Positions 1 to 36,300 of a stretch of DNA of 64,000 nucleotides are shown here, piece after piece. Numbering within the stretch: position 1 is the stretch's first letter; each line of letters opens with the position of its first letter. The notes under the pieces were generated by a model. The model was not told where the DNA came from. It saw nothing but the letters and a program-made list of their open reading frames with translations, and made no database searches. This DNA is from the human T2T-CHM13v2.0 reference genome, Homo sapiens. The translations under genes and the position numbers were made by a program. The DNA lies in assembly GCA_009914755.4 (NCBI GenBank), contig CP086569.2, forward strand, positions 12,288,001 through 12,352,000. The letters are read 5' to 3'.

Positions 1-490
1 AATGGACCGGAAAGGAATGGAATCCAATGGAATGGAATTGAATGGAATCAAAAGGAATAGAAAGGAATAGAATGTAATTGAATGATATCGAATGGAAGGG
101 AATGGAATGAAGTCGAATGGAATGCACTGGAATGGAATGGACACGATCAGAACGGACTGGGGAGGAATGTACACAAATGGAATGGAAACGAATGGAATGG
201 AATGAAAAGGAATGGAATGAAATGGAATTGAAAGGAACGGAATGAAATGGAATGGAATGGAATGGAATGGATTGGAATAGAATGGATTCAAATAAAATAG
301 AATCGATTGGAATGCTATTGAATGGAAGGGACTTGAATGGAATGGAAAGCAATGGAAGATATTCGAATTGAATGGCATCGAATGAAATGGAATGGAACGC
401 AATGGAACGGACCCGAATGGAATGGAATGGACTCAAATGTAATGGACTCGAATGGAATCGACTGAAATATAATAGACTCGAATGGAATGG
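1..490 (+). repeat. Partial S-type HOR copy (distal end), upstream of the first complete copy
   Basis: Sequence at 1-490 is colinear with the last ~490 bp of the S-type copies (e.g. 11131-11618). Confidence 0.7.
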
Positions 491-11618: not shown

Positions 11619-14600
11619 CCTCGAGCGGAATTTATTTGAATAGAATGGAATCAAATGGAATACAATAGTATTGAATGGAATAGAATGGTATGGAATCGAA
11701 TGGAATGTAATCCAATGGAATGGAACGGAATTCAATATAATGGAGTAGAATGGAATGCATTGGAAAGCAGCAGAGTGGAATCGAGTGGAATGGAATCGAG
11801 TGGAATGGAATCAAAAGGAACGAAATCGAATTGAATGGACTTGAATGGAATTGACTCGAAAGGAATTGACTCGAAAGGAATGGACTGGAACAAAAAGGAA
11901 TCAAATGGACAGGAATGGAATGGAATGGACTCGAATGGAATGGAGTCAAATGCAAACGCATCGAATGGAATGGATTCAAATGGAATGCAATTGAATGGAA
12001 TAGAAAGGAAGAGAATGGAATTGAGAGTAATGGAAAGATATCGATTGGAATGAAATGGAATGGAAAGGAATTGAATGGAAAGGAATGGACTCGAAAGAAA
12101 TGGATTGGAATGGAATGGTCTCCAATGGAATGGACTGGAGTGGAATGGAATCGAATGGAATGAAAAGAATGGAACGGAATGGAACGGAAAGGAATAGAAA
12201 GTTATGGAATCCGATGGGACAGAATGGAATGGAATGGACTTTCATGAAATGGAGTCGAATAGAGTGGCATCAAAAGGAATGGAATGGAATGGAGTGGACT
12301 CAAAAGGAATGGACTCAAAGGAATGGAGTCGAACCAAATTGAATCAAATGGATTGGAGTCGAACAGAACGGAATGGAATCGAATGAACTCGACTGGTGTA
12401 GAGAGGAATGTAAAGGAATAGAATGGAATGTAATCAAATGGATTGCAAGCGAATGGAATCAAAAATAATAGAAAGGAATGGAGTGTAAAGGGATGATATT
12501 GAATAAAATGGAATGGAATGGAATTTAATGGAATGGAGTCTCAGGAATGGACAGGAATGTAATGGACTCCAATGGAATGGAATGGATGAAAATGGATTTG
12601 AACAGATTGGTATCGAACGGAATGGAATGCAGTGGAATGGAATGGACTCGAATGGAGAAGAGACAAATGGAATTTAAACGAATTCAATGGAATTGAAAAG
12701 AATAGAATGGAATGGCGTGTAATGGTAAGATACTAAATGGAATGGAATTGAATGTAACGTAATGGAATGGAACCAAATGTAATGCACTCAAATGGAATAT
12801 ACTCAAATTGAATGGAATCGAAAGGAAAGGTCTCCAATGGAATTTATTCAATACAATGGAATCAAAAGAAATGCAATAGAAAGAAAAGGAATCGAATGTA
12901 ATGGAATCAAATAGTATGGACCAGAATGGAATGGACTGCCATAGAACGGACTGCAGTGTAATGGATTGAATTCTAATTCATTCAAATGGAATGGAATTGA
13001 ATGGAATGGAATCCAATGGAATGGATAGGATTGTACTGGAATGGAATAGCATGGAATGCAACGGAGTGGAATGGAGTTGAATGAAGTGGAATGGAATCGA
13101 TTGGAATGGAATCAAATGGAATGGACGGGAATGGAATGGACTGGAAGAGAACAGACTCGAATATAATGGATTGCAATGTAATTGATTCAAATGGAATGGA
13201 ATCGAATGGAATGTAATAAAATTGAAGGGATTGGAGTTCAATGCAATGGAATAGAATGGAATGCAAAGGAAAGAAAAGGCACGGAGTGAAATCGAGTGTA
13301 ATGGAATCGAATGGAATGAAATGGAATGGAATGGACTCAAAAGAAATGGACGAGGGACAAAATGGAATCGAACTGATTGGAATGGAACGGAAGGGAATGG
13401 AATGGAATGGTCTCCATTGGACGGGAGTAGAACGGATTGGAATGGAATGGAATGAAATGGAATGGAAAGGAATAGAATGGAATGGAATGGAATGGAAGGT
13501 AATGGAAAGATAACAAACGGATTGGAAAGGAATGGAATGGACCCTAATGGAATGGAATGGAATTCAACAGAAACGAATGGAATGGACTGGAGTGAAATGG
13601 AGTCGAATGTAATTGAGTGGAGAGGAATGGACTCGAAAGGAATGGACTCGAATAGAATGGACTGGAATGGATTGTACTCGAATGGAGTGGAAAGGAATAA
13701 AATGGATTCCATCAGATTGGAATGGAACAGAATGTAATGGAATGGAATGGAATGCAATGGAATGGCTCGAATGCAATGGAAGAGAAAGGAAAGGAATTGA
13801 ATGGTATTGAAAGTAATAGAATTAAATGGAGTGCAAAGGAAAGATATCGAATGGAATGGATCGAAAAGAAATAGAATGGAATGGACAGGAATGGAATGGA
13901 ATAGAATGGAATAGACGGGCGTGCAATGCAAACGAATGGAATGGAAACGAATGGAATGGAATGGAAAGGAATGGAGTAGAATAAATACTATGGAATGGAA
14001 TGGAATGGAGGCGAAAGGAATAGAATGGATTGGAGTGTCACCGAATGGAAAGATATGGAATGGAAAGGAATGGATATGAATGGAATGGAATAGAAAGGAA
14101 CGGAAAGGTAAAGAATGGAATGGAATCGGATAGAATGGAATGCAATGTAATGGAGTCGAATGGAAAATAATCGAGTAGAATGATATCGAACGGAATGGAA
14201 TTTAATAGAATGGAATGGAATGGAATGGACTCGAATGGAATGTACTCAAATGGATTAGAATTGAATGGAATGGAAATAAACGTAGTGAACTCGAATGGAA
14301 TGGACACTAATAGAATGGAAGAGAAAGGAATGGTATTGAATGGAATTTATTCGAATAGAATGGAATTCAACGGAATGCAACAGTGTGGCATGGAATCAAA
14401 TGGAATGGAATCGAATGGCATGGACCCGAGTGGAATGGACTCACATAGAAGAGCCTCGAATGTAATGGATTACAATGTATTAGATTTGAAAGGACTGAAA
14501 TCGAATGGAATGTAATCAAATAGAACGGAACTGAATGCGTGGAATGGCATAGAAAGTAATGCAATGGAATGGAATAGACTGGAAAGGAATGGAATCGGAT

Positions 14601-17167
14601 GGAATGTAATGAAATGTAATTGAAGGAATGCCATGGAATGGAATGGAATGCAATGCAATGGGACGGTGCATAATGGAGTGCAATGGATTTCAGTGGAATG
14701 TAGTCAAAAGGAATGAAATAGAATGGAATTCAATATAATGGAATGGCATCCAATGGCAAGGGATGGAGCGGACTCCAATGGAAACATGAAAGGAATATAA
14801 TATAATGGAATGGCATTGAACGAAATGGAATGCAATGGAGTTAAAAGGTAAAATATCGAATGGAAAAGAATTGTATGGACTCGAATGGAATATAATGAAA
14901 TGGAATGGACTCGAATGGAATGTACTAGAGTTGAATGGAATCGAATGGAATTTAAAACAATGGAAAGGAAAGGAAGGGAATTGAAAGGAACGGAATAGAA
15001 TGGAATGGAATCGGAAGGAACGGAATTGAATGGAATGGAAACTAAAGGAATAGAATAGAAAGGAATGCCATTGAATGGAATGGAATGGAATGGAATACGA
15101 TGGAACAGAATGGAATGGAATAGAATTGAATGGAATGGCATCAAATGGATTGGAATGGAATGTAATGGAATGGAATGGAAAGGAATGGAATGGACTCGAA
15201 TGGAATGTACTGAAATGGAATAGAATAGAATGGAATGGAAGTAAATATAATGGTCTCGAGTGGAATGGATTGGAATAAATTGGAATTGAATGTATTGGAT
15301 TCGATTGGAAAGGAATGGAATGGAATGGAATGGAATGGATTCGAATGGAATGGAACGAATTGGAATGTAATTGAATGGAGTCGAAAACAGTAGAAAGAAA
15401 AGAAGTTTAATCGAATGATATAGAATGGAATTGAATGGAATGTACGCGAATGGAATGGACTGGAATGGAATGGAGTGACATGTAATGGAATCGAAAGGAA
15501 TGGAATCGAATGAAATGGAATTGAATGGAATAGAAAGGAATAGAATGGAATGGAGTTTAATGGAAAGATATTAAAAGTAATGGAATGGAATTGAGTGGAC
15601 ACAAATGGAATGGACTGGAATGGAAAGGACTCGAATGAAATGGAGCACATTAGAATGGACTCGAATGGAATGGATTGGAGTGGAATGGTCTCGAATGGAT
15701 TGGAAACGAATGTCATGGAAAGGAATAGAATGGAATGTAATCAAATGGAAAGAAATGTAATGGAATGGGTTCAACTGGAACAGAATTGAATGGAGTGGAA
15801 TTGAATGGAATGGAATGCAATCGAATGGAATGCACACGAATGGAATAGAATGAAATGAAATGGCATAGAATGGAATGGAATGGAATGGAATGGAATGGAA
15901 TGGAATGGAATGGAATGGAATGGAATGGCATGGAATGGAATGGAATGGTATGGAATGAAATGGATTGGAATGGGATGTTCCCAAAAGTAATGGACTCAAA
16001 TAAAAGGAACTCAAATAGAATGAATTGGAAAGAAACGGTCTCGAATGTAATTTATTCGAATAGAATGATATTGAATGGAATGCAATAATATGGAATGGTA
16101 TCGAATAGAATGGAATAGAATGGAATGGAATGGAACGGTATGGAGTGCATTTGAACGGACTCCAATGCAATAAATTGCAATATAATTGATTCAAATGGAA
16201 TGGAATCGAATAGAATGTAAACAAATGGAATGGAAGGCAATGCAATGGAAAGGAATCGAATGAAATGGAATAAATGGGATGGAATCGAATGGAAAGGACG
16301 CGAATGTAACGGACTGTTAAGGAAAGGCCTCGAATCGAATTTATTCCGATAGAATGGAATCGAATGGAATGCAATACTATTGAATCGAATCAAATGGAAT
16401 GGAATTGAATGGAATGGACAGGAATGGAATGAACTGGAAGTGAATGGACAAGAACGTAATATAGTGCAATGTAATTTATTCAAATGGAATGGAATGCAAT
16501 CGAATGGAATGGACTCGATTGGAATGGACTGGAGTGGAATGGACTGAAATGGAATGGAAACGAATGTAAAGGAATGGAACGGAAAGCAAAGGAATCTACT
16601 GTAATAGAATCGAACGGAACAGAAAGGAATGGAATGGAATGGAGTGGAATGGACTCGAATGGAATGTATTCGAATGTAATGGACTGGAAAGGAATGGAAT
16701 CCAATGGAATGGAATTGAATGGAATCAAAAGTAATAGAAAGGAAAAGAGTGTAATTGAATGATATCGAATGGAAGGGAATGGAATGAAGTCGAATGGAAT
16801 GCACTGGAATGGAATGGACACGATCAGAACGGACTGGAGAGGAATGTACACAAATGGAATGGAAACGAATGGAATGGAATGAAAAGGAATGGAATGAAAT
16901 GGAATTGAAAGGAAAGGAATGAAATGGAATGGAATGGAATGCAATGGATTGGAATAGAATGGATTCAAATAAAATAGAATCGATTGGAATGGTATTGAAT
17001 GGAAGGGACTTGAATGGAATGGAAAGCAATGGAAGATATTCGAATTGAATGGCATCGAATGACATGGAATGGAACGGAATGGAACGGACCCGAATGGAAT
17101 GGAATGGACTCAAATGTAATGGACTCGAATGGAATCGACTGAAATATAATAGACTCGAATGGAATAT
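11619..17167 (+). repeat. S-type HOR copy S3 (5549 bp)
   Basis: Same landmark spacing and the same order of blocks as S1/S2. Confidence 0.8.
15868..15928 (+). repeat. Uninterrupted (GGAAT)12 tract (example)
   Basis: Pure run read directly, homologous to 10319-10379, followed by GGCATGG interruptions. Confidence 0.8.
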
Positions 17168-20100
17168 CCTCGAGCGGAATTTATTTGAATAGAATGGAAT
17201 CAAATGGAATACAATAGTATTGAATGGAATAGAATGGAATGGAATGGAATGGAATGTAATCCAATGGAATGGAACGGAATTCAATATAATGGAGTAGAAT
17301 GGAATGCATTGGAAAGGAGCAGAGTGGAATCGAGTGGAATGGAATCGAGTGGAATGGAATCAAAGGGAACGAAATCGAATTGAATGGACTTGAATGGAAT
17401 TGACTCGAAAGGAATTGACTCGAAAGGAATGGACTGGAACAAAAAGGAATCAAATGGACAGGAATGGAATGGAATGGACTCGAATGGAATGGAGTCAAAT
17501 GCAAACGCATCGAATGGAATGGATTCAAATGGAATGCAATTGAATGGTATAGAAAGGAAGAGAATGGAATTGAGAGTAATGGAAAGATATCGATTGGAAT
17601 GAAATGGAATGGAAAGGAATTGAATGGAAAGGAATGGACTCGAAAGAAATGGATTGGAATGGAATGGTCTCCAATGGAATGGACTGGAGTGGAATGGAAT
17701 CGAATGGAATGAAAAGAATGGAACGGAATGGAACGGAAAGGAATAGAAAGTTATGGAATCCGATGGGACAGAATGGAATGGAATGGACTTTCATGAAATG
17801 GAGTCGAATAGAGTGGCATCAAAAGCAATGGAATGGAATGGAGTGGACTCAAAAGGAATGGACTCAAAAGGAATGGAGGCGAACCAAATTGAATCAAATG
17901 GATTGGAGTCAAACAGAACGGAATGGAATGGAATGAACTCGACTGGAGTAGAGAGGAATGTAAAGGAATAGAATGGAATGTAATCAAATGGATTGCAAGC
18001 GAATGGAATCAAAAATAATAGAAAGGAATGGAGTGTAAAGGGATGATATTGAATAAAATGGGATGGAATGGAATTTAATGGAATGGAGTCGAAGGAATGG
18101 ACAGGAATGTAATGGACTCCAATGGAATGGAATGGATGAAAATGGATTTGAACAGATTGGTATCGAACGGAATGGAATGCAGTGGAATGGAATGGGCTCG
18201 AACGGAGAAGAGACAAATGGAATGGAAACGAATTCAATGGAATTGAAAAGAATAGAACGGAATGGCGTGTAATGGTAAGATACTAAATGGAATGGAATTG
18301 AATGGAATGTAATGGAATGGAACCAAATGTAATGCACTCAAATGGAATATACTCAAATAGAATGGAATCGAAAGGAAAGGTCTCCAATGGAATTTATTCA
18401 ATACAATGGAATCAAAAGAAATGCAATAGAAAGAAAAGGAATCGAATGTAATGGAATCAAATAGAATGGACCAGACTGGAATGGACTGCCATAGAACGGA
18501 CTGCAGTGTAATGGATTGAATTCTAATTCATTCAAATGGAATGGAATTGAATGGAATGGAATCCAATGGAATGGATAGGATTGTACTGGAATGGAATAGC
18601 ATGGAATGCAACGGAGTGGAATGGAGTTGAATGAAGTGGAATGGAATCGATTGGAATGGAATCAAATGGAATGGACGGGAATGGAATGGACTGGAAGAGA
18701 ACAGACTCGAATATAATGGATTGCAATGTAATTGATTCAAATGGAATGGAATCGAATGGAATGTAATAAAATTGAAGGGATTGGAGTTCAATGCAATGGA
18801 ATAGAATGGAATGCAAAGGAAAGGAAAGGCACGGAGTGAAATCGAGTGCAAGGGAATCGAATGGAATGAAATCGAATGGAATGGACTCAAAAGAAATGGA
18901 CGAGGGACAAAACGGAATCGAACTGATTGGAATGGAACGGAAGGGAATGGAATGGAATGGTCTCCATTGGATGGGAGTAGAACGGATTGGAATGGAATGG
19001 AATGAAATGGAATGGAAAGGAATAGAATGGAATGGAATGGAATGGAAGGTAATGGAAAGATATCAAACGGATTGGAAAGGAATGGAATGGACCCTAATGG
19101 AATGGAATGGAATTCAACAGAAACGAACGGAATGGACTGGAGTGAAATGGAGTCGAATGTAATTGAGTGGAGAGGAATGGACTCGAAAGGAATGGACTCG
19201 AATAGAATGGACTGGAATGGATTGTACTCGAATGGAGTGGAAAGGAATAAAATGGATTCCACCAGATTGGAATGGAACAGAATGTCATGGAATGGAATGG
19301 AATGCAATGGAATGGCTCGAATGCAATGGAAGAGAAAGGAAAGGAATTGAATGGTATTGAAAGTAATAGAATTAAATGGAGTGCAAAGGAAAGATATCGA
19401 ATGGAATGGATCGAAAAGAAATAGAATGGAATGGACAGGAATGGAATGGAATAGAATGGAATAGACTGGCGTGCAATGCAAACGAATGGAATGGAAACGA
19501 ATGGAATGGAATGGAAAGGAATGGAGTAGAATAAATACTATGGAATGGAATGGAATGGAGGCGAAAGGAAAAGAATGGATTGGAGTGTCACCGAATGGAA
19601 AGATATGGAATGGAAAGGAATGGATACGAATGGAATGGAATAGAAAGGAACGGAAAGGTAAAGAATGGAATGGAATCGGATAGAATGGAATGCAATGCAA
19701 TGGAGACGAATGGAAAATAATCGAGTAGAATGATATTGAACGGAATGGAATTTAATAGAATGGAATGGAATGGAATGGACTCGAATGGAATGTACTCAAA
19801 TGGATTAGAATAGAATGGAATGGAAGTAAACGTAGTGAACTCGAATGGAATGGACACTAATAGAATGGAAGAGAAAGGAATGGTATTGAATGGAATTTAT
19901 TCGAATAGAATGGAATTCAACGGAATGCAACAGTGTGGCATGGAATCAAATGGAATGGAATCGAATGGCATGGACCCGAGTGGAATGGACTCACATAGAA
20001 GAGCCTCGAATGTAATGGATTACAATGTATTAGATTCGAAAGGACTGAAATCGAATGGAATGTAATCAAATAGAACGGAACTGAATGCGTGGAATGGCAT

Positions 20101-22709
20101 AGAAAGTAATGCAATGGAATGGAATAGACTGGAAAGGAATGGAATCGGATGGAATGTAATGAAATGTAATGGAAGGAATGCTATGGAATGGAATGGAATG
20201 GAATACAATGGGACGGTGTATAATGGAGTGCAATGGATTTCAGTGGAATGTAGTCAAAAGGAATGAAATAGAATGGAATTCAATATAATGGAATGGCATC
20301 CAATGGCAAGGGATGGAGCGGACTCCAATGGAAACGACATGAAAGGAATATAATATAATGGAATGGCATTGAACGAAATGGAATGCAATGGAGTTAAAAG
20401 GTAAAATATCGAATGGAAAAGAATTGTATGGACTCGAATGGAATATAATGAAATGGAATGAACTCGAATGGAATGTACTAGAGTTGAATGGAATCGAATG
20501 GAATTTAAAACAATGGAAAGGAAAGGAAGGGAATTGAAAGGAACGGAATAGAATGGAATGGAATCGGATGGAACGGAATTGAATGGAATGGAAACTAAAG
20601 GAATAGAATAGAAAGGAATGCCATTGAATGGAATGGAATGGAATGGAATGGAATAAGATGAAACAGAATGGAATGGAATAGAATTGAATGGAATGGCATC
20701 GAATGGATTGGAATGGAATGTAAAGGAATGGAATGGAAAGGAATGGAATGGACTCGAATGGAATGTACTGAAATGGAATAGAATAGAATGGAATGGAAGT
20801 AAATATAATGGACTCGAGTGGAATGGATTGGAATAAATTGGAATTGAATGTATTGGATTCGAATGGAAAGGAATGGAATGGAATGGAATGGAATGGAATG
20901 GAATTGATTCGAATGGAATGGAACGAATTGGAATGTAATTGAATGGAGTCGAAAACAGTAGAAAGAAAAGAAGTATAATCGAATGATATAGAATGGAATT
21001 GAATGGAATGTACACGAATGGAATGGACTGGAATGGAATGGAGTGACATGTAATGGAATCGAAAGGAATGGAATCGAATGAAATGGAATTGAATGGAATA
21101 GAAAGGAATAGAATGGAATGGAGTTTAATGGAAAGATATTAAAAGTAATGGAATGGAATTGAGTGGACACAAATGGAATGGACTGGAATGGAAAGGACTC
21201 GAATGAAATGGAGCGCATTAGAATGGACTCGAATGGAATGGATTGGAGTGGAATGGTCTCGAATGGATTGGAAACGAATGTAATGGAAAGGAATAGAATG
21301 GAATGTAATCAAATGGAAAGAAATGTAATGGAATGGGTTCAACTGGAACAGAATTGAATGGAGTGGATTGAATGGAATGGAATGCAATCGAATGGAATGC
21401 ACACGAATGGAATAGAATGAAATGAAATGGCATAGAATGGAATGGAATGGAATGGAAAGGAATGGAATGGAATGGCATGGAATGGAATGGAATGGTATGG
21501 AATGAAATGGATTGGAATGGGATGTTCCCAAAAGTAACGGACTCAAATAAAAGGGACTCAAATAGAATGAATTGGAAAGAAACGGTCTCGAATGTAATTT
21601 ATTCGAATAGAATGATATTGAATGGAATGCAATAATATTGAATGGTATCGAATAGAATGGAATAGAATGGAATGGAATGGAACGGTATGGAGTGCATTTG
21701 AACGGACTCTAATGCAATAAATTGCAATATAATTGATTCAAATGGAATGGAATCGAATAGAATGTAAACAAATGGAATGGAAGGCAATGCAATGGAAAGG
21801 AATCGAATGAAATGGAATAAATGGGATGGAATCGAATGGAAAGGACGCGAATATAATGGACTGTTAAGGAAAGGCCTCGAATCGAATTTATTCCAATAGA
21901 ATGGAATCGAATGGAATGCAATACTATTGAATCGAATCAAATGGAATGGAATTGAATGGAATGGACAGGAATGGAATGAACTGGAAGTGAATGGACAAGA
22001 ACGTAATATAGTGCAATGTAATTTATTCAAATGGAATGGAATGCAATCGAATGGAATGGACTCGATTGGAATGGACTGGAGTGGAATGGACTGAAATGGA
22101 ATGGAAACGAATGTAATGGAATGGAACGGAAAGCAAAGGAATCTACTGTAATAGAATCGAACGGAACAGAAAGGAATGGAATGGAATGGAGTTTAATGGA
22201 CTCGAATGGAATGTATTCGAATGTAATGGACCGGAAAAGAATGGAATCCAATGGAATGGAATTGAATGGAATCAAAAGGAATAGAAAGGAATAGAGTGTA
22301 ATTGAATGATATCGAATGGAATGGAATGAAGTCGAATGGAACGCACTAGAATGGAATAGACATGATCAGAACGGACTGGAGAGGAATGTACACAAATGGA
22401 ATGGAAACGAATGGAATGGAATGAAAAGGAATGGAATGAAATGGAATTGAAAGGAACGGAATGAAATGGAATGGAATGGAATGGAATGGATTGGAATAGA
22501 ATGGATTTAAATAAAATAGAATCGATTGGAATGGTATTGAATGGAAGGTACTTGAATGGAATGGAAAGCAATGGAAGATATTCGAATTGAATGGCATCGA
22601 ATGAAATGGAATCGAACGGAATGGAACGGACCCGAATGGAATGGAATGGACTCAAATGTAATGGACTCGAATGGAATCGACTGAAATATAATAGACTCGA
22701 ATGGAATGG
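17168..22709 (+). repeat. S-type HOR copy S4 (5542 bp)
   Basis: Same landmark spacing. The landmark copy at 17168 carries a small variant (GGAATATCCTCGAGCGG). Confidence 0.8.
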
Positions 22710-25700
22710 CCTCGAGCGGAATTTATTTGAATAGAATGGAATCAAATGGAATACAATAGTATTGAATGGAATAGAATGGAATGGAATCGAATGGAATGTA
22801 ATCCAATGGAATGGAACGGAATTCAATATAATGGAGTAGAATGGAATGCATTGGAAAGGAGCAGAGTGGAATCGAGTGGAATGGAATCGAGTGGAATGGA
22901 ATCAAAGGGAACGAAATCGAATTGAATGGACTTGAATGGAATTGACTCGAAAGGAATTGACTCGAAAGGAATGGACTGGAACAAAAAGGAATCAAATGGA
23001 CAGGAATGGAATGGAATGGACTCGAATGGAATGGAGTCAAATGCAAACGCATCGAATGGAATGGATTCAAATGGAATGCAATTGAAAAGAATAGAAAGGA
23101 AGACAATGGAATTGAGAGTAATGGAAAGATATCGATTGGAATGAAATGGAATGGAAAGGAATTGAATGGAAAGGAATGGACTCGAAAGAAATGGATTGGA
23201 ATGGAATGGTCTCCAATGGAATGGACTGTAGTGGAATGGAATCGAATGGAATGAAAAGAATGGAACGGAATGGAACGGAAAGGAATAGAAAGTTATGGAA
23301 TCCGATGGGACAGAATGGAATGGAATGGACTTTCATGAAATGGAGTCGAATAGAGTGGCATTAAAAGCAATGGAATGGAACGGAGTGGACTCCAAAGGAA
23401 TGGACTGGAAAGAATGGAGACGAACCAAATTGAATCCAATGGATTGGAGTCGAACAGAATGGAATGGAATGGAATGAAGTCGACTGGAGTAGAGAGGAAT
23501 GTAAAGGAATAGAATGGATTGTAATCAAATGGATTGCAACGGAATGGAATGAAAAATAATAGAAAGGAATGGAGTGTAAAGGGATGATATTGAATATAAT
23601 GGAATGGAATGCAATTCAATGGAATGGAGTCGAAGGAATGGACAGGAATGTACTGGACTCCAATGGAACGGAATGGATGAAAATGGATTTGAACAGATTG
23701 GAACCGAACAGAATGGAATGCAATGGAATGGAATGGACTCGAATGGAGAAGAGACAAATGGAATGGAAACGAATTCAATGGAATTGAAAAGAATAGAATG
23801 GAATGGCGTGTAATGGTAAGATACTAAATGGAATGGAATTGAATGGAATGGTATGGAATGGACCCAAATGTAATGCACTCGAATGGAATATACTCAAATA
23901 GAATGGAATCGAAAGGAAAGGTCTCCAATGGAATTTATTCAATACAATGGAATCGAATGGAATGCAATAGAATGGAATGGAATCGAATGTAATGGAATCA
24001 AATAGAATGGACCAGAATGGAATGGACTGCCATAGAACGGACGGCAGTGTAATGGATTGAATTCTAATTCATTCAAATGGAATGGTATTGAATGGAATGG
24101 AATCCAATGGAATGGATAGGATTGTACTGGATTGGAATAGAATGGAATGCAACGGAGTGGAATGGAGTTGAATGAAGTGGAATGGAATCGATTGGAATGG
24201 AATCAAATGGAATGGACGGGAATGGAATGGACTGGAAGAGAACAGACTCGAATATAATGGATTGCAATGTAATTGATTCAAATGGAATGGAATCGAATGG
24301 AATGTAATAAAATTGAAGGGATTGGAGTTCAATGCAATGGAAAAGAATGGAATGCAAAGGAATGGAAAGGAACGGAGTGAAATCGAGTGTAATGGAATCG
24401 AATGGAATGAAATCGAATGGAATGGACTCAAAAGAAATGGACGAGGGACAAAACGGAATCGAACTGATTGGAATGGAACGGAAAGGAATGGAATGGAATG
24501 GTCTCCATTGGATCGGAGTAGAACGGATTGGAATGCAATGGAATGAAATGGAATGGAAAGGAATAGAATGGAATGGAAGGTAATGGAAAGATATCGAACG
24601 GATTGGAAAGGAATGCAATGGACCCTAATGGAATGGAATGGAATTCAACAGAAACCAATGGAATGGACTGGAGTGAAATGGAGTCGAATGTAATTGACTG
24701 GAATGGAATGGACTCGAAAGAAATGGACTCGAATAGAATGGACTGGAATGGATTGTACTCGAATGGAGTGGAAAGGAATAAAATGGATTCCACCAGATTG
24801 GAATGGAACAGACTGAAATGGAGTGGAATGGAATGCAATGGAGCGGCTCGACTGGAATGGAGTCGAATGCAGTGGAATAGAAAGGAAAGGAATTGAATGG
24901 AATTGAAAGTAATAGAATTAAATGGAGTGCAAAGGAAAGATATCGAATGGAATGGATCGAAAAGAAATAGAATGGAATGGACAGGAATGGAATGGAATAG
25001 AATGGAATAGACTGGCGTGCAATGAAAGCGAATGGAATGGAATGGCAAGGAATGGAGTAGAATAAATACTATGGAATGGAATGGAATGGAATTGAATGGA
25101 ATGGAATGGAATGGAGGCGAAAGGAAAAGAATGGATTGGAATGTCACCGAATGGAAAGATATGGAATGGAAAGGAGTGGATAGGAATGGAATGGAATAGA
25201 AAGGAACGGAAAGGTAAAGAATGGAATGGAATCGGATAGAATGGAATGCAATGAAATGGAGTCGAATGGGAAATAATCGAGTAGAATGATATCGAATGGA
25301 ATGGAATTTAATGGAATGGAATGGAATGGAATGGAATGGAATGGAATGTTCTCCAATGGATTAGAATAGAATGGAATGGAACTAAACGTAATGAACTCGA
25401 ATGGAATGGACACAAATAGAATGGAAGAGAAAGGAATGGTATTGAATGGAATTTATTCGAATAGAATGGAATTCAACGGAATGCAACAGTGTGGCATGGA
25501 ATCAAATGGAATGGAATCGAATGGAATGGACCCGAGTGGAATGGACTCACATAGAACAGCCTGGAATGTAATGGATGACAATGTATTAGATTCGAAAGGA
25601 CTGAAATCGAATGGAATGTAATCAAATTGAACGGAATTGAATGCATGGAATGGCATAGAAAGTAATGCAATGGAATGGAATAGACTGGAATGGAATGGAA

Positions 25701-26588
25701 TCGGATGGAATGTAATGAAATGTAATGGAAGGAATGCCATGGAATGGAATGGAATGGAATGCAATGGGCCTGTGTATAATGGAGTGCAATGGAATTCAGT
25801 GGAATGTAGTCAATAGGAATGAAATAGAATGGAATTCAATATAAGGGAATGGCATCCAATGGCAAGGAATGGAGTGGACTCCAATGGAAACAACATGAAA
25901 GGAATATAATATAATGGAATGGCATTGAACGAAATGGAATGCAATGGAGTTAAAAGGTAAGATATCGAATGGAAAAGAATTGAATGGACTCGAATGGAAT
26001 ATAACGGAATGGAAAGGACTCGAATGGAATGTACTAGAGTTGAATGGAATGGAATGGAATGGAAAACAATGGAAAGGAAAGGAAGGGAATAGAAAGGAAA
26101 GGAATAGAATGGAATGGAATCGGATAGAACGGAATTGAATGGAATGGAAACTAAAGGAATAGAATAGAAATGAATGGCATTGAATGGAATGGAATGGAAT
26201 GGAATCAGATGGAACAGAAAGGAATGGAATAGAATCGAATGGTATGGCATCGAATGGATTGGAATGGAATGTAATGGAATGGAAAGGAATGGAATGGACT
26301 CGAATGGAATGTACTCAAATGGAATAGAATAGAATGGAATGGAAGTAAATATAATGGACTCGAATGGAATGGATTGAAATAATATGGAATTGAATGTATT
26401 GGATTTGAATGGAAAGGAATGGAATGGATTGGAATGAATTCGAATGGAATGGAATCGAATGGAATGGAACGAATTGGAATGTAATTGAATGGCGTCGAAA
26501 ACAGTAGAAAGAAATGAAGTTTAATCGAATGATATCGAATGGAATTGAATGGAATGTACGCGAATGGAATGGACTGGAATGGAATGGA

Positions 26589-28686
26589 CTCTATGGGAAT
26601 GAAGAGGAGTGGAATGGACTCGAATGTCATGGAGACGATTGGAATGGAAGGGAATGCAAAGGAATGGAATGGAATGGAATCTGATGCATCGCAATGGAAT
26701 GGAATGGGGTCGATTGGAATAGAATCGAAAGGAATGGCATCCAATGGAATGGAAACGAATTGAATGGAATGGCAGGAATGGAATGGAAAGGAATATAATG
26801 GAAAGGAATCGGATGGAACGGAATGGAATGTAATGGAGTCGAATGGAATAGAATCTAATAGAATTGCATTGATAGGAATGGAATCGAACGGACTCGAAAG
26901 GATTGGAGCCTAACAGAAGAGAATCGAACAGAATAGCATCAAATGGAATGGAAATGAATGGAATGGAATGGAATGGAATGGAATGGAATGGAATGGAATG
27001 GAATGGACACACATGTAATGGACTTGAATGGAATGGAATCAAATAGAATGGACGCGAATGGAATGGTCTCGAATGGAATTTATGAAAATAGAATGGAATC
27101 GAAAGTCATTGAACATTATGGAATGGAATCAAATGGAATGAAATCCAATGGAAGGAACCGGAATGGAATGTACTGGAATAGAACGGACTCGAATGTTACG
27201 GAAAGAAAAGTAAATGATTCGGATGTCTTTTAATTGAAAGGAATGAAATTAAATGGAATGGAAAGGAATAAAATGGAATGGAATGAGATAGAATGCAATA
27301 GAATGGAAGTGAGTGGAGTCGAGTTGAATGGAATCGAATTGAATGGAATAGAATCAAATGGAATGGATTCGAATGCAATGGAATCGAATGGAATGGACTG
27401 GAACATAATGGAATTGAACGTATTGGAATGGAAAGGAATGGAAAGGAATTGAATGCAACGGAAAGCAATGGAATCGAATGTAATGGGGTCGTATGTAGTG
27501 GAGTAAAATGGAATGGAATCAAATGGAAGGAAAAGAATACAATCGAATTGAATAGAATAGAATGCAACAGAATGAAACAGAGTGGAATCGAGTGGAATGG
27601 AATAGAATTGAATGGAATGGAAAGGAATGGAATCGAATGGAATGGAATGGAATGGAAGGGAACCGAATGGAATGGAATGGAACAAAATGGAATTGAACAG
27701 ATTAGAATCGAATGGATCCGAATCGAATGGAATAGAATATAATGGAATAGAATGGAATGGAATAGAATGGAATGGAATGGAATATAATGGAATAGAATGG
27801 AATGGAATGGAATGGAATGGAATGGAATGGAATGGAATGGAATGGGATGGAATGGAATGGACCCAAATGTAATGAACTCTAATGATATGGACTTTAATAG
27901 AATGGATTAGAAAACAATGGGCTCGAATGGAATTTAATCAAGTCGAATTTAATGGAATGGAATGGAATGCAAAACTATGGAATAGCATCAAATGGAATGG
28001 AACAGAATAGAGTGGAATGGAATGGAATACACAGGTATAGAACAGACTCGAATGTAATGGATTGCAATGTAAGTGATTCAAAGGGAATGGAATCAAATGG
28101 AATATAATCAAATGGAATGGAATGGAGTGCATTGGAATGGAATAAAATGGAATGCAAACAATGGTACAGAACTCATTTGAATCTAGAGGAATGGAATCGA
28201 ATGCAATGGAAAAGAATGGAATGGACACGAATGGAATGGATTGGAAACAAATGGAATGGAAAGGATTTTAATCATACAGAACAAAATAGAATGCAATGGA
28301 CTCGAATGAAATGGAGTCGAAGAGAATAGTATCAAATGGAAAGGAATGGAATGCAATCGAATCGAATGGAATGTTAATGAAATTAATTGAAAGGAATAGA
28401 ATGGAATGAAGTGTAAAGGAAAGATATCGAATTGAATGGAATTGAATGGAATGGACACAAACGGAATGGACTGGAATGGAATGAACTCAAAAAGGAATGG
28501 AATGGAGCGGAACGGACTCGAGTGCAATGGAATCGAATGGTATAGAATAGAACGGAATGGAATGGAAAGGAATAGAAGGGAATGGAATCGGATCCAACGG
28601 GACAGATTGGAATGGGGTAGAATTGAATAGAATCGAATGGAATGGCATCGAATGTAATGGAATGGAATGGACTCGAATGGAATGGA
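26589..28686 (+). repeat. X block in L1 (~2.1 kb), a satellite segment present in L-type but absent from S-type HOR copies
   Basis: L1 is colinear with S copies up to ...GCGAATGGAATGGACTGGAATGGAATGGA (S1 ~4345-4370). It then diverges (CTCTATGGGAATGAAGAGG...). It rejoins S-type sequence at GGAATGGAGTGACATGTAATGG (28679 onward; S1 4363 onward). Both flanks of X carry GAATGGAATGGACT(G/C)GAATGGAATGGA. Confidence 0.75.
27196..27240 (+). other. Non-pentameric island inside X block (GAAAGAAAAGTAAATGATTCGGATGTCTTTTAATTGAAAGG), conserved in every L copy
   Basis: This stretch lacks GGAAT periodicity. It recurs at ~34845-34880, ~42460-42492, ~50000-50022 and ~57535-57562. The L5 copy lacks ~20 bp (AAGAAATCAAATGGAATGG) found after it in L4. 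Confidence 0.6.
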
Positions 28687-30369
28687 GTGACATGTAATGG
28701 AATCGAAAGGAATGGAATCGAATGAAATGGAATTGAATGGAATAGAAAGGAATAGAATGGAATGGAGTTTAATGGAAAGATATTAAAAGTAATGGAATGG
28801 AATTGAGTGGACACGAATGGAATGGACTGGAATGGAAAGGACTCGAATGAAATGGAGCGCATTAGAATGGACTCGAATGGAATGGATTGGAGTGGAATGG
28901 TCTCGAATGGATTGGAAACGAATGGAATGGAAAGGAGTAGAATGGAATGTAATCAAATGGAACGAAATGGAATGGAATGGATTCGACTGGAACAGAATTG
29001 AATGGAGTGGAATTGATTGGAATGGAATGCAATCGAATGGAATGAACACGAATGGAATAGAATGAAATGAAATGGCATAGAATGGAATGGAATGGAATGG
29101 AATGGAATGGAAGGGAATGGAATGGAATGGAATGGAATGGAATGGCATGGAATGTATTGGAATGGAATGAAATTGATTGGAATGGGATGGGCCCAAAAGT
29201 AATGGACTCAAATAAAAGGGACTCAAATAGAATGAATTGGAAAGAAACGGTCTCGAATGTAATTCATTCGAATGGAATGATATTGAATGGAATGCAATAG
29301 TATGGAATGGTATCGAATAGAATGGAATAGAATGGAATGGAATGGAACGGAATGGAGTGCATTTGAACGGACTCAAATGCAATAAATTGCAATATAATTG
29401 ATTCAAATGGAATAGAATCGAATAGAATGTAAACAAACGGAATGGAAGGCAATGTAATGGCAAGGAATGGAATGAAATTGAATAAATGGAATGGAATCGA
29501 ATGGAAAGGACGGGAATATAATGGACTGTTAAGGAAAGGTCTCGAATCGAATTTATTCCAATAGAATGGAATCGAATGGAATGCAATACTATTGAATCGA
29601 ATCGAATGGAATGGAATTGAATGGAATGGACAGGAATGGAATGAACTGGAAGTGAATGGACAAGAACGTAATATATTGCAAAGTAATTTATTCAAATGGA
29701 ATGGAATGCAATCGAATGGAATGGACTCGATTGGAATGGACTGGAGTGGAATGGACTCAAATGGAATGGAAACGAATGTAATGGAATGGAACTGAAAGCC
29801 AAGGAATCTACTGGAATAGAATCGAACGGAACAGAAAGGAATGAAATGGAATGGAGTGGAATGGACTCGAATGGAATGTATTCGAATGTAATGGACCTGA
29901 AGGAATGGAATCCAATGGAATGGAATTGAATGGAATCAAAAGGAATAGAATGCAATAGAGTGTAATTGAATGATATCGAATGGAAGGGAATGGAATGAAA
30001 TCGAATGTAATGCACTGGAATGGAATGGACTCGATCAGAACGGACTGTAGCGGCATGTACACAAATGAAATGGAAACGAATGGAATGGAATGAAATGGAA
30101 TGGAAATGGAATTGAAAGGAACGGAATGGAATGGAATGGAATGAAATGGATTGGAATAGAATGGATTCAAATAAAATAGAATCGATTGGAATGGTATTGA
30201 ATGGAAGGGACTTGAATGGAATGGAAAGCAATGGAAGATATTGGAATTGAATGGCATCGAATGAAATGGAATGGAACGGAATGGAACGGACCCGAATGGA
30301 ATGGAATGGACTCAAATGTAAAGGACTCGAAAGGAATCGACTGAAATATAATAGACTCGAAAAGAATGG

Positions 30370-33300
30370 CCTCGAGCGGAATTTATTTGAATAGAATGGA
30401 ATCAAATAGAATACAATAGTATGGAATTGAATAGAATGGAATGGAATCGAATGGAATGTAATCAAATTGAATGGAACGGAATTCAATATAATGGAATAGA
30501 ATGGAATGCATTGGAAAGGAGCAGAGTGGAATCGAGTGGAATGGAATCGAAAGGAATGGAATCAAAGGGAACGAAATCGAATTGAATGGACTTGAATGGA
30601 ATTGAGTCGAAAGGAATTGACTCGAAAGTAATGGACTGGAACAAAAAAGAATCAAATGGACAGGAATAGAATGGAATGGACTCGAATGGAATGGAGTCAA
30701 ATGCAAACGTATCGAATGGAATGGATTCAAATGGAATGCAATTGAATGGAATAGAAAGGAAGAGAATGGAATTGAGAGTAATGGAAAGATATGTATTGGA
30801 ATGAAATGGAATGGAAAGGAATTGAATGGAAAGGAATGGACTCGGAAGAAATGGATTGGAATTTAATGGTCTCCAATGGAATGGACTGGAGTTGGACGGA
30901 ATCGAATGGAATGAAAAGAATGGAACGGAATGGAACGGAAAGGAATAGAATGTTATGGAATCCGATTGGACAGAATGGAATGGAATGGAGTTTCATGAAA
31001 TGGAGTCGAATAGAGTGGCATCATAAGGAACGTAATGGAACTGAGTGGACTCCAAAGAATGGACTCGAAAGGAATGGAGACGAACCAAATTGAATCCAAT
31101 GGATTGGAGTCGAACAGAATGGAATGGAATGGAATGAACTCGACTGGAGTAGAGAGGAATGTAAAGGAATAGAATGGAATGTAATCAAATGGATTGCAAC
31201 TGAATGGAATCAAAAATAATAGAAAGGAATGGAGTGTAAAGGGATGATATTGAATATAATGGAATGGAATGGAATTCAATGGAATGGAGTCGAAGGAATG
31301 GACAGGAATGTAATGGATTCCAATGGAATGGAATGGATGAAAATGGATTTGAACAGATTGGAATCGAACGGAATGGAATGCAATGGAATTGAATGGACTC
31401 GAATGGAGAAGAGACAAATGGAATGGAAACGAATTCAATGGAATTGAAAAGAATAGAATGGAATGGCGTGTAATGGTAAGATAGTAAATGGAATGGAATG
31501 GAATGGAATGGAATGGAATGGAATGGACCCAAATGTAATGCCCTCGAATGGAATATACTCAAATAGAATGGAATCGAAAGGAAAGGTCTCAAATGGAATT
31601 TATTCAATACAATGGAATCGAATGGAATGCAATAGAATGGAATGGAATCGAATGTAATGGAATCAAATAGAATGGACCAGAATGGAATGGACTGCCATAG
31701 AACGGACGGCAGTGTAATGGATTGAATTCTAATTCATTCAAATGGAATGGTATTGAATGGAATGGAATCCAATGGAATGGATAGGATTGTACTGGATTGG
31801 AATAGAATGGAATGCAACGGAGTGGAATGGAGTTGAATGAAGTGGAATGGAATCGATTGGAATGGAATCAAATGGAATGGACGGGAATGGAATGGACTGG
31901 AAGAGAACAGAATCGAATATAATGGATTGCAATGTAATTGATTCAAATGGAATGCAATCGAATGGAATGTAATAAAATTGAAGGGATTGGAGTTCAATGC
32001 AATGGAAAAGAATGGAATGCAAAGGAATGGAAAGGAACGGAGTGAAATCGAGTGTAATGGAATCGAATGGAATGAAATCGAATGGAATAGACTCAAAAGA
32101 AATGGACGAGGGACAAAACGGAATCGAACTGATTGGAATGGAACGGAACGGAATGGAATGGAATGGTCTCCATTGGATGGGAGTAGAACGGATTGGAATG
32201 GAATGGAATGAAATGGAATGGAAAGGAATAGAAGGTAATGGAAGGTAATGGAAAGATATCGAACGGATTGGAAAGGAATGCAATGGACCCTAATGGAATG
32301 GAATGGAATGGAACAGAAACCAATGGAATGGACTGGAGTGAAATGGAGTCGAATGTAATTGACTGGAGTGGAATGGACTCGAAAGGAATGGACTCGAATA
32401 GAATGGACTGGAATGGATTGTACTCGAATGGAGTGGAAAGGAATAAAATGGATTCCAACAGATTGGAATGGAACAGACTGAAATGGAGTGGAATGGAATG
32501 CAATGGAACGGCTCGACTGGAATGGAGTCGAATGCAATGGAATAGAAAGGAAAGGAATTGAATGGAATTGAAAGTAATAGAATTAAATGGAGTGCAAAGG
32601 AAAGATATCGAATGGAATGGATCGAAAAGAAATAGAATGGAATATACAGGAATGGAATGGAATAGAATTGAATAGACTGGCGTGCAATGAAAACGAATGG
32701 AATGGAATAGCAAGGAATGGAGCAGAATAAATACTACGGAATGGAATGGAATGGAATTGAATGGAATGGAATGGAATGGAGGCGAAAGGAAAAGAATGGA
32801 TTGGAATGTCACCGAATGGAAAGACATGGAATGGAAAGGAGTGGATAGGAATGGAATGGAATAGAATGGAACGGAAAGGTAAAGAATGGAATGGAATCGG
32901 ATAGAATGGAATGCAATGAAATGGAGTCGAATGGGAAATAATCGAGTAGAATGATATCGAATGGAATGGAATTTAATGGAATGGAATGGAATGGAATGGA
33001 CTCGAATGGAATGTACTCAAATGGATTAGAATAGAATGGAATGGAACTAAACGTAATGAACTCGAATGGAATGGACACAAATAGAATGGAAGAGAAAGGA
33101 ATGGTATTGAATGGAATTTATTCGAATAGAATGGAATACAATGGAATGCAACAGTGTGGCATGGAATCAAATGGAATGGAATCGAATGGAATGGACCCGA
33201 GTGGAATGGACTCACATAGAACAGCCTGGAATGTAATGGATGACAAAGTATTAGATTCGAAAGGACTGAAATCGAATGGAATGTAATCAAATAGAACGGA

Positions 33301-36300
33301 ATTGAATGCATGGAATGGCATAGAAAGTAATGCAATGGAATGGAATAGACTGGAATGGAATGGAATCGGATGGAATGTAATGAAATGTAATGGAAGGAAT
33401 GCCATGGAATGGAATGGAATGGAATGCAATGGGCCAGTGTATAATGGAGTGCAATGGAATTCAGTGGAATGTAGTCAATAGGAATGAAATAGAATGGAAT
33501 TCAATATAAGGGAATGGCATCCAATGGCAAGGAATGGAGTGGACTCCAATGGAAACAACATGAAAGGAATATAATATAATGGAATGGCATGGAACGAAAT
33601 GGAATGCAATGGAGTTAAAAGGTAAGATATCGAATGGAAAAGAATTGAATGGACTCGAATGGAATATAACGGAATGGAATGGACTCGAATGGAATGTACT
33701 AGAGTTGAATGGAATGGAATGGAATGGAAAACAATGGAAAGGAAAGGAAGGGAATTGAAAGGAAAGGAATAGAATGGAATGGAATCGGATAGAACGGAAT
33801 TGAATGGAATGGAAACTAAAGGAATAGAATAGAAAGGAATGGCATTGAATGGAATGCAATGGAATGGAATCAGATGGAACAGAAAGGAATGGAATAGAAT
33901 CGAATGGTATAGCATCGAATGGATTGGAATGGAATGTAATGGAATGGAAAGGAATGGAATGGACTCGAATGGAATGTACTCAAATGGAATAGAATAGAAT
34001 GGAATGGAAGTAAATATAATGGACTCGAATGGAATGGATTGGAATAAATTGGAATTGAATGTATTGGATTCGAATGGAAAGGAATGGAATGGATTGGAAT
34101 GGATTCGAATGGAATGGAATCGAATGGAATGGAACGAATTGGAATGTAATTGAATGGCGTCGAAAACAGTAGAAAGAAATGAAGTTTAATCGAATGATAT
34201 CGAATGGAATTGAATGGAATGTACGCGAATGGAATGGACTGGAATGGAATGGACTCTATGGGAATGAAGAGGAGTGGAATGGACTCGAATGTCATGGAGA
34301 CGATTGGAATGGAAGGGAATGCAAAGGAATGGAATGGAATGGAATCTGTTGCATCGGAATGGAATAGAATGGGGTCGATTGGAATAGAATCGAAAGGAAT
34401 GGCATCCAATGGAATGGAAACGAATTGAATGGAATGGCATGGAATGGAATGGAAAGGAATATAATGGAAAGGAATCGGATGGAACGGAATGGAATGTAAT
34501 GGAGTCGAATGGAATAGAATCTAATAAAATTGCATTGATAGGAATGGAATCGAACGGACTCGAAAGGATTGGAGCCTAACAGAAGAGAATCGAACAGAAT
34601 AGCATCAAATGGAAAGGAAATGAATGAAATGGAATGGAATGGAATGGAATGGACACAAATGTAATGGACTTGAATGGAATGGAATCAAATAGAATGGACA
34701 CGAATGGAATGGTCTCGAATGGAATTTATGAAAATAGAATGGAATCGAAAGTCATTGAACATTATGGAATGGAATCAAATGGAATGAAATCGAATGGAAG
34801 GAACCGGAATGGAATGTACTGGAATAGAACGGACTCGAATGTTACGGAAAGAAAAGTAAGTGATTCGGATGTCTTTTAATTGAATGGAATGAAATCAAAT
34901 GGAATGGAAAGGAATAAAATGGAATGGAATGAAATAGAATGCAATAGAATGGAAGGGAGTGGAGTCGAGTTGAATGGAATCGAATTGAATGGAATAGAAT
35001 GGAATAGAATCAAATGGAATGGATTCGAATGCAATGGAACCGAATGGAATGGACTGGAACATAATGGAATTGAACGTATTGGAATGGAAAGGAATGGAAA
35101 GGAATTGAATGCAACGGAAAGCAATGGAATCGAATTTAATGGAGTCGTATGTAGTGGAGTCGAATGGAATGGAATCATATGGAAGGAAAAGAATACAATC
35201 GAATGGAATAGAATAGAATGCAACAGAATGAAACGGAGTGGAATCGAGTGGAATGGAATAGAATTGAATGGAATGGAAAGGAATGGAATCGAATGGAATG
35301 GAATCGAATGGAATGGAACCGAATGGAATGGAATGGAACAAAATGGTATTGAACAGATTAGAATCGAATGGATCCGAATCGAATGTAATGGAATATAATG
35401 GAATAGAATGGAATGGAATGGAATGGAACGGAATGGAATGGAATGGACCCAAATGTAATGAACTCTAATGATATGGACTTTAATGGAATGGATTAGAAAA
35501 CAATGGGCTCGAATGGAATTTAATCAAGTCGAATTTAATTGAATGGAATGGAATGCAAAACTATGGAATAGCATCAAATGGAATGGAACAGAATAGAGTG
35601 GAATGGAATGGAATACACAGGTATAGAACAGACTCGAATGTAATGGATTGCAATGTAAGTGATTCAAAGGGAATGGAATCAAATGGAATATAATCAAATG
35701 GAATGGAATGGAGTGCATTGGAATGGAATAAAATGGAATGCAAACAATGGTACAGAACTCATTTGAATGTAGAGGAATGGAATCAAATGCAATGGAAAAG
35801 AATGGAATGGACACGAATGGAATGGATTGGAAACAAATGGAATGGAAAGGATTTTAATCATACAGAACAAAATAGAATGCAATGGACTCGAATGAAATGG
35901 AGTCGAAGAGAATAGTATCAAATGGAAAGGAATGGAATGCAATCGAATCGAATGGAATGTTAATGAAATTAATTGAAAGGAATAGAATGGAATGAAGTGT
36001 AATGGAAAGATATCGAATTGAATGGAATTGAATGGAATGGACACAAACGGAATGGACTGGAATGGAATGAACTCGAAAGGAATGGAATGGAGTGGAACGG
36101 ACTCGAGTGCAATGGAATCGAATGGTATAGAATAGAATGGAATGGAATGGAAAGGAATAGAAGGGAATGGAATCGGATCCAACGGGACAGATTGGAATGG
36201 GGTAGAATTGAATAGAATCGAATGGAATGGCATCGAATGTAATGGAATGGAATGGACTCGAATGGAATGGAGTGACATGTAATGGAATCGAAAGGAATGG

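What the first reader, a model, noticed from the sequence alone, without database searches (positions are those of the whole stretch)
22710..23500. Junction between two higher-order-repeat subfamilies: ~5.55-kb S-type and ~7.5-kb L-type
Landmark spacing is 5555, 5573, 5549 and 5542 bp for the first four copies. It then becomes 7660, 7556, 7530, 7535 and 7536 bp. Diagnostic substitutions switch from S-type to L-type within copy L1 at about 23.37-23.40 kb. One example is AAAAGCAATGG / CTCAAAAGG changing to CTCCAAAGG, with translations changing from EWSRTKLNQ to EWRRTKLNP. Downstream L copies differ from S copies by a few percent, estimated by eye from about 10 aa differences per 115-aa translated block. 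The window therefore captures the boundary between two array domains. Such boundaries are where unequal exchange, conversion tracts or array-expansion histories can be read.
Basis: seen in the sequence. Interest (0 to 1): 0.6.

Follow-up and report, generated by a model that had tools for sequence, protein, structure and literature searches.

The report
Boundary between two satellite repeat variants
Inside a long (GGAAT)n-derived satellite, very probably human satellite 3, a block of 5.55-kb repeat units meets a block of 7.5-kb units at one hybrid unit whose sequence type switches within 8 bp; this is a clean example of a known process, unequal exchange in satellite arrays.

Summary
The window is 64 kb of one-stranded (GGAAT)n-derived satellite.

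- **Periods:** about 5.55 kb on the left and 7.53-7.66 kb on the right.
- **Two types:** they differ by about 4.5% in substitutions. S copies are 98.4-98.9% alike; L4-L6 are 99.4% alike.
- **Hybrid unit (20991-28634):** it carries the S state at 61 of 64 diagnostic sites up to 23373. From 23381 on it carries the L state at 73 of 93 sites (14 S, 6 other). Max chi-square is 97.9, reached by 0 of 2000 permutations.

Four refinements:
- The length difference is a 2.0-kb segment X that first appears at 26589, 3.2 kb right of the sequence switch.
- X has no paralogue in the rest of the unit.
- The S unit carries a chimeric 52-bp junction, the footprint of a homology-mediated deletion of X, so S most likely derives from an L-like unit.
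- The L side is graded. L1 and L2 are older-looking, and L4-L6 are a recent sub-block marked by a 110-bp deletion.

Contigs from metagenome assemblies, at least one from human skin, carry both unit forms.

Varying periodicity within HSat2/3 arrays is already described, so this is an ordinary, well-resolved instance.

The parts
1..23377 (+). S-type block: 5.55-kb units (S1 partial 1-4317, S2 4318-9873, S3 9874-15422, S4 15423-20990, plus the S-type left part of the hybrid unit 20991-23373)
   Evidence: Self-BLAST diagonal at +5.55 kb. S-S identity is 98.4-98.9%. The left part of the hybrid is 98.2-98.4% identical to S copies and 95.3-95.4% to L copies.
23373..23381 (+). Switch interval: last S-state diagnostic site at 23373, first L-state site at 23381
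   Evidence: max chi-square 97.9, 0/2000 permutations.
20991..28634 (+). Hybrid unit 'L1' (7644 bp): S-type 20991-23373, L-type 23381-26588, then X
   Evidence: Overall it is equally distant from S (96.4-96.6%) and L (96.5-96.9%). This resolves into two segments.
23381..64000 (+). L-type block: 7.53-7.66-kb units (L2 28635-36219, L3 36220-43835, L4 43836-51365, L5 51366-58896, L6 partial 58897-64000)
   Evidence: Identity to L4-L6 rises away from the junction: L1 right part 97.4-97.6% (segment II), L2 97.7-97.8%, L3 98.5-98.7%, and L4-L6 99.4% among themselves.
26589..28634 (+). X segment, first copy (about 2.0 kb, present only in L units). Later copies: 34254-36219, 41840-43835, 49381-51365, 56916-58896
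   Evidence: Gap blocks in the alignment and HSP ends. X copies are 97.9-99.7% alike. X against the rest of the unit gives only 68-71% on every diagonal, which is satellite background.
20991..21042 (+). S-type deletion junction (52-mer). Also at 4321-4372, 9874-9925 and 15423-15474. It carries all seven X-left-specific bases and then continues into the start of the common part
   Evidence: alignment. X-left and A-left 52-mers are 45/52 identical, and only 0.028% of 52-mer pairs within a unit are that similar. Junction strings are located.
30572..30830 (+). S/ancestral-state patch in L2 (7 of 8 consecutive diagnostic substitutions, plus a 10-bp indel state)
   Evidence: The metagenome contigs also carry the S state here, so the L3-L6 states are the derived ones.
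23362..23710 (+). Cluster of 12 substitutions private to the hybrid unit, immediately around and right of the switch
   Evidence: 12 private sites fall in the 400-column bin just right of the switch, against about 3.6 per bin on average. None of the 12 is shared with a metagenome contig.
37315..37424 (+). 110-bp stretch present in S2-S4 and L1-L3 (S1 does not reach it) and deleted in L4, L5 and L6 (deletion points 44955/6, 52490/1, 60016/7). It marks the recent L4-L6 sub-block
27740..27810 (+). Pentamer expansion of about 65-70 bp, private to the X copy of the hybrid unit
   Evidence: Metagenome contig alignments to this unit also end at 27763.

Best explanation
The window is a (GGAAT)n-derived pericentromeric-type satellite, HSat3-like and most likely human, organised in multi-kb nested tandem repeats. 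Two locally homogenised variants of one unit lie side by side.

The longer unit (common part A of 5.55 kb plus segment X of 2.0 kb) is the older form. The 5.55-kb S unit arose from it by one deletion of X, through misalignment of two about 87%-identical 52-bp direct repeats at the left ends of X and of A. The exchange fell inside a shared 12-bp GAATGGAATGGA. The S unit was then amplified.

The S and L blocks are joined by one exchange that was in register within the unit but between different units. This is unequal homologous crossover, or an equivalent template switch during repair replication. It resolved between 23373 and 23381 and left one hybrid unit.

Both blocks went on homogenising separately. 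On the L side a younger sub-block (L4-L6, marked by a 110-bp deletion) expanded away from the junction and left older-looking copies (L1 right part, L2, L3) next to it.

Shown: periods, unit types, the hybrid unit, the breakpoint interval, the chimeric deletion junction, and the gradient of identity. Inferred: the direction of the X event, the crossover mechanism, and the order of events.
For: - **Satellite nature:** TRF period 5/10/15 across 1-63998 and constant strand skew.
- **Two periods:** one change-over.
- **Clean hybrid:** the left segment is 98.2-98.4% identical to S and 95.3-95.4% to L. The right segment is 97.3-98.0% to L and 95.0-95.2% to S.
- **Breakpoint:** between 23373 and 23381, max chi-square 97.9, 0/2000 permutations.
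- **X is not a duplicate of A:** 68-71% on all diagonals. L therefore cannot be a duplication product of S.
- **S junction:** X-left sequence followed by A sequence. The two 52-mers are 45/52 identical, a level reached by 0.028% of random pairs.
- **Independent samples:** 15 contigs from metagenome assemblies, at least one named as human skin, match the family. L-type X boundaries occur in 8-12 of them, including contigs of 7626 and 7698 bp. The S deletion junction occurs in 2, including a 5628-bp contig.
- **Both types are derived:** these contigs carry the L state at about 57% and the S state at about 40% of diagnostic sites, so both window types are locally fixed lineages.
- **Literature:** periodicity varies across HSat2/3 arrays and nested tandem repeats expand hyper-locally (bioRxiv 10.1101/2021.07.12.452052). 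Unequal exchange and sister-chromatid exchange occur in Yq12 HSat3 (10.1101/2022.12.01.518724).
Against: - No reads are available, so the join cannot be validated.
- Only 4.2 S and 5.4 L copies are seen, so 'blocks' may be small.
- The 5628-bp metagenome contig has the S deletion junction on a non-S sequence background. Either the deletion is older than the S type or the contig is a short-read chimera, so the order of events is not fixed.
- Crossover, long conversion and replication template switching leave the same hybrid and cannot be told apart here.
- Species and chromosome are not established.
Confidence: 0.82

Rival explanations
1. Assembly misjoin. Two separate arrays or haplotypes, one S and one L, were falsely joined where they are similar.
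For: A misjoin would also give one in-register hybrid unit. No read data were available to check.
Against: S and L differ at 4.5% of sites. The switch lies in a 7-bp interval, with further differences 42 bp to the left and 11 bp to the right, so there is no long identical stretch to mislead a long-read assembler. S4 and the hybrid share a private variant just left of the switch (column 2417), as neighbours in one array do. Both unit forms exist in independent samples.
Confidence: 0.06
2. Opposite polarity. The 5.55-kb unit is ancestral, and the L unit arose by insertion of about 2 kb of foreign pentamer satellite.
For: X has no paralogue in the unit, so it could have come from elsewhere. The S array is not less diverse than the L array: S-S identity is 98.4-98.9% and L4-L6 is 99.4%.
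Against: The inserted piece would have to end, by chance, in a 52-mer that is 45/52 identical to the sequence just before the insertion point (p about 3e-4). X-bearing units occur in two diverged lineages, the window's L type and the metagenome type, and are the majority form in other samples.
Confidence: 0.12
3. There was no reciprocal crossover. The boundary is the end point of a multi-unit amplification, by break-induced or rolling-circle-like replication with a template switch, or of a long gene-conversion tract.
For: Twelve private substitutions cluster in 23362-23710, right at the switch, against about 3.6 per 400 bp elsewhere. Error-prone repair synthesis could produce this. The product is indistinguishable from a crossover.
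Against: Other private-substitution clusters exist away from the switch (22193-22363 and 27146-27734), so the cluster may be chance or ordinary. Nothing in the sequence requires replication-based repair.
Confidence: 0.25
4. The translated differences reflect a coding repeat, that is a protein with variant repeats.
For: Long open frames exist, because pure GGAAT repeats have no stop codon on this strand (read directly from the sequence).
Against: The whole 64 kb is a pentamer satellite with 5-bp and other non-triplet indels between copies. There is no Rfam family. The open frames are a by-product of the motif.
Confidence: 0.01

Closest known systems
Human satellite 3 (HSat3) nested tandem repeats, e.g. 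the 3.6-kb DYZ1 unit on Yq12 and NTRs found by NTRprism in T2T-CHM13
   Same: A (CATTC)n/(GGAAT)n-derived satellite organised in multi-kb units of irregular internal structure, with copies 95-99% alike. Periodicity changes within an array, and evolution is by unequal exchange.
   Different: I found no paper in the held library that mentions unit lengths of 5.55 and 7.5 kb. Subfamily and chromosome are unassigned. The classical 10-mer CAACCCGA is absent.
Alpha-satellite HOR structural variants and HOR-haplotype domains (layered expansion model)
   Same: Adjacent blocks of variant units differ by an internal deletion, with hybrid units at in-register breakpoints. The youngest, most homogeneous copies lie away from older flanking copies.
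   Different: There is no 171-bp monomer and no discrete monomer count, so the units are not HORs in the strict sense. No link to kinetochore position is known or tested.
Hybrid repeat units from unequal crossover in other tandem families (rDNA, minisatellites, Lepore-type fusions)
   Same: A single in-register switch of diagnostic variants within one unit.
   Different: Here the partners were about 4.5% diverged, and the exchange resolved in a 7-bp interval between mismatches.

Membership tests
HSat3 (human satellite 3) | Derived from the pentamer CATTC/GGAAT, on one strand over long distances | tested here: met
   TRF periods 10 and 15 with consensus AATGGAATGG cover 1-63998. There are 3888 GGAAT against 20 ATTCC, and GC skew is about +0.6 throughout.
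HSat3 (human satellite 3) | Multi-kb nested tandem repeat unit with irregular internal structure | tested here: met
   Units are 5.55 and 7.53-7.66 kb. Within a unit every off-diagonal gives only about 69-71% identity.
HSat3 (human satellite 3) | Interspersed 10-mer CAACCCGA(A/G)T of classical satellite III (feature recalled from memory, not from a paper read here) | tested here: not met
   Zero occurrences of CAACCCGA or its complement. This may only mean a subfamily that lacks the motif. It lowers confidence in 'classical satellite III', not in 'GGAAT-derived HSat2/3-type satellite'.
HSat3 (human satellite 3) | Assignment to one of the 11 HSat3 subfamilies by subfamily-specific k-mers, and a chromosomal location | not testable with these tools
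   No human assembly or subfamily k-mer set is available. The literature was read.
HSat3 (human satellite 3) | Human origin | tested here: inconclusive
   Fifteen metagenome contigs, one named human skin metagenome, match at 92-98.5%. There were no matches in bacterial or archaeal genomes. Another great ape is not excluded.
HSat2 | Units of about 23-26 bp built on ATCATCGAATGGA-type motifs (recalled from memory) | tested here: not met
   Zero occurrences of ATCATCGAATGGA or CGAATGGAATCATC.
Higher-order repeat in the alpha-satellite sense | A unit made of a whole number of monomers of similar length | tested here: not met
   The only array-wide sub-periods are multiples of 5 bp (10 and 15 bp). 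Arrays of 19, 24, 34-35 and 94 bp are local and short. The T2T authors reserve 'NTR' for this case.
Array-domain junction made by unequal homologous exchange | One hybrid unit with a single in-register switch of diagnostic variants, and pure copies on either side | tested here: met

The most novel reading that the evidence does not exclude
The 12 private substitutions packed into about 350 bp at the switch (23362-23710) are the scar of error-prone repair synthesis. The S/L boundary would then record a break-induced-replication template switch rather than a meiotic or mitotic crossover. Such junctions could be used genome-wide to read which repair pathway expands human satellites.
Probability: 0.1. 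Interest if true: 0.5.

Novelty: new member of a known kind. Interest (0 to 1): 0.25.

Why it matters
The junction gives a base-resolved example of how a multi-kb satellite unit changes length and how two variants abut. It shows one homology-mediated 2-kb deletion, one in-register hybrid unit, and separate homogenisation on each side.

The hybrid 8-bp interval, the chimeric 52-mer and the 110-bp deletion are unique markers in otherwise unmappable sequence. They could be genotyped across haplotypes to time and order expansions.

It does not change what is already understood about HSat2/3 array evolution.

Tried and rejected
- **X as a diverged duplicate of part of the unit:** rejected. Every diagonal gives 68-71%, which is the satellite background.
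- **Third sequence type right of the switch (S | other | L mosaic):** not supported. None of the 12 private bases clustered at the switch occurs in any metagenome contig.
- **L2 patch (30572-30830) as conversion from the neighbouring S-type sequence:** not supported as stated. The metagenome contigs also carry the S state there, so the L3-L6 states are the derived ones. The clustering is still unexplained.
- **Chromosome or subfamily assignment from the literature:** no paper found mentions 5.5- or 7.5-kb HSat3 units.
- **Exact-match scan of bacterial and archaeal genomes:** nothing found.
- **Rfam scan of the window:** nothing found.
- **Dating from divergence:** not attempted, because mutation and conversion rates in satellites are unknown.

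Full report
**What the window is**

Tandem Repeats Finder reports one array over 1-63998 with periods 10 and 15 and consensus AATGGAATGG. GC content is 0.36-0.39 and GC skew about +0.6 in every 2-kb window. GGAAT occurs 3888 times against 20 for its complement. The whole window is therefore a single-orientation (GGAAT)n-derived satellite of the HSat2/3 type.

HSat2-type motifs are absent. So is the classical satellite III 10-mer CAACCCGA, a feature I recall from memory. No Rfam family matches. The amino-acid strings in the finding are only a reading aid, because pure GGAAT repeats have no stop codon on this strand.

**The observation**

Offsets between shared 24-mers peak at 5.54-5.59 kb and 7.53-7.67 kb. 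By position, the 5.55-kb offset holds up to about 21 kb and the 7.55-kb offset from about 21 kb on, with no overlap of the two regimes.

Self-BLAST gives three long diagonals:
- 1-21042 to 5566-26588, 97.1% identity
- 20991-37340 to 28635-44981, 95.9% identity
- 37400-56464 to 44931-64000, 98.7% identity

In a MAFFT alignment of ten units, the column of position 22710 gives spacings of 5555, 5573, 5549, 5542, 7660, 7556, 7530, 7535 and 7526.

**Anatomy**

L units consist of a 5.55-kb part A, homologous to the S unit, plus a 2.0-kb segment X. The X copies lie at 26589-28634, 34254-36219, 41840-43835, 49381-51365 and 56916-58896.

Substitution identity over part A:

| Comparison | Identity |
|---|---|
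| Among S copies | 98.4-98.9% |
| Among L4-L6 | 99.4% |
| S against L | 95.3-95.6% |

The unit at 20991-28634 is equally far from both types, 96.4-96.9%. Split at the switch, it resolves cleanly. Its left part is 98.2-98.4% identical to S and 95.3-95.4% to L. Its right part is 97.3-98.0% identical to L and 95.0-95.2% to S.

There are 157 substitution sites fixed differently in S2-S4 and L3-L5. The hybrid carries the S state at 61 of 64 sites up to 23373. From 23381 on it carries the L state at 73 of 93 sites, the S state at 14 and another base at 6. Ten of those 14 residual S states are shared with L2.

A maximum chi-square test places the breakpoint between 23373 and 23381, with chi-square 97.9. 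The largest value in 2000 permutations was 18.8.

Copies left out of the site definition behave as pure types: S1 is 150/150 S, S4 is 182/190 S and L6 is 176/179 L.

The substitutions behind EWSRTKLNQ to EWRRTKLNP are at about 23420 and 23437.

**Origin of the length difference**

X aligns to the rest of the unit at only 68-71% on every diagonal, which is the satellite background. It is therefore not a duplicated piece of A.

At each S-S boundary the first 52 bp are the left end of X, carrying all seven X-specific bases. The sequence then continues with A. The positions are 4321-4372, 9874-9925, 15423-15474 and 20991-21042.

The X-left and A-left 52-mers are 45/52 identical, and only 0.028% of 52-mer pairs in a unit reach that level. 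The exchange point lies in a shared GAATGGAATGGA.

This is the expected footprint of a deletion between short direct repeats, so the 5.55-kb unit most likely derives from an X-bearing unit. The reverse, an insertion, would need the inserted DNA to end by chance in a matching 52-mer.

**Outside evidence**

An exact-match scan of metagenome contigs with a 43-mer from the unit found 15 contigs, one of them labelled human skin metagenome. A scan of bacterial and archaeal genomes found none.

The contigs align to the window at 92-98.5%. Several have unit length (7626, 7698 and 5628 bp), as expected when an assembler collapses a tandem array.

L-type X boundaries occur in 8-12 contigs. The S deletion junction occurs in two, including the 5628-bp contig.

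At the diagnostic sites these contigs share one pattern, about 57% L state and 40% S state. Both window types are therefore derived, locally fixed lineages of a wider family.

The 5628-bp contig has the S junction on this third background. Either the deletion predates the S type or the contig is a short-read chimera, and I cannot tell which.

**The L side is graded**

Private substitutions per unit are 69 (hybrid), 66 (L2), 39 (L3) and 18, 13 and 10 (L4-L6).

L4-L6 also share a 110-bp deletion. The stretch is present at 37315-37424 in L3 and in S2-S4, L1 and L2 (S1 does not reach it). The deletion points are 44955/6, 52490/1 and 60016/7.

The youngest copies therefore lie away from the junction.

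**Mechanism**

The S and L blocks are joined in register within the unit. This is what an unequal homologous exchange between an S unit and an L unit produces. A long conversion tract or a template switch during repair replication would give the same product.

The exchange resolved in a 7-bp interval between mismatches in partners about 4.5% apart.

A misjoin is unlikely, because no long identical stretch surrounds the switch. In addition, S4 and the hybrid share a private variant just to its left. Without reads, however, a misjoin is not excluded.

**Comparison with what is known**

The T2T centromere study names such units nested tandem repeats. It already reports that periodicity varies across HSat2/3 arrays, consistent with hyper-local expansion (10.1101/2021.07.12.452052).

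The T2T-Y study reports 3.6-kb HSat3 units, higher divergence in the peripheral satellite blocks, and evolution by unequal exchange (10.1101/2022.12.01.518724).

This junction is a well-resolved new instance of that known behaviour. I found no paper describing 5.55- or 7.5-kb units. Species, chromosome and subfamily remain unassigned.

**Verdict**

Novelty is low, and interest is modest at 0.25.

Noticed in passing
window 4321-4372, 9874-9925, 15423-15474, 20991-21042: Each S-S boundary is a chimeric 52-mer: the left end of X joined to the start of the common part. This is the footprint of a homology-mediated 2-kb deletion that created the short unit.
   Followed up: yes
window 23362-23710: Twelve substitutions private to the hybrid unit cluster at and just right of the switch, about three times the unit's average density. 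None of the 12 is shared with any other copy or metagenome contig.
   Followed up: partly
window 30572-30830: L2 carries S/ancestral states at 7 of 8 consecutive diagnostic sites, plus a 10-bp indel state. It is a clustered patch that a simple tree does not explain.
   Followed up: partly
window 37315-37424 (deletion points 44955/6, 52490/1, 60016/7): A 110-bp deletion is shared by L4-L6 only. Together with their 99.4% identity it marks a second, younger sub-block boundary between L3 and L4.
   Followed up: partly
window 27740-27810: A pentamer expansion of about 65-70 bp is private to the X copy of the hybrid unit.
   Followed up: no
loci L002 (7626 bp), L012 (7698 bp), L010 (5628 bp): Contigs from metagenome assemblies have lengths equal to one satellite unit, that is collapsed tandem arrays. 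This shows that both unit forms exist in other samples.
   Followed up: partly
loci L009 and L013 (8985 and 8990 bp): Two contigs are longer than one unit. Only about 6.7 kb aligned in the top hits, and the remaining 2.3 kb was not examined. It could be a further structural variant.
   Followed up: no
window 22193-22363 and 27146-27734: Further clusters of substitutions private to the hybrid unit lie away from the switch.
   Followed up: no
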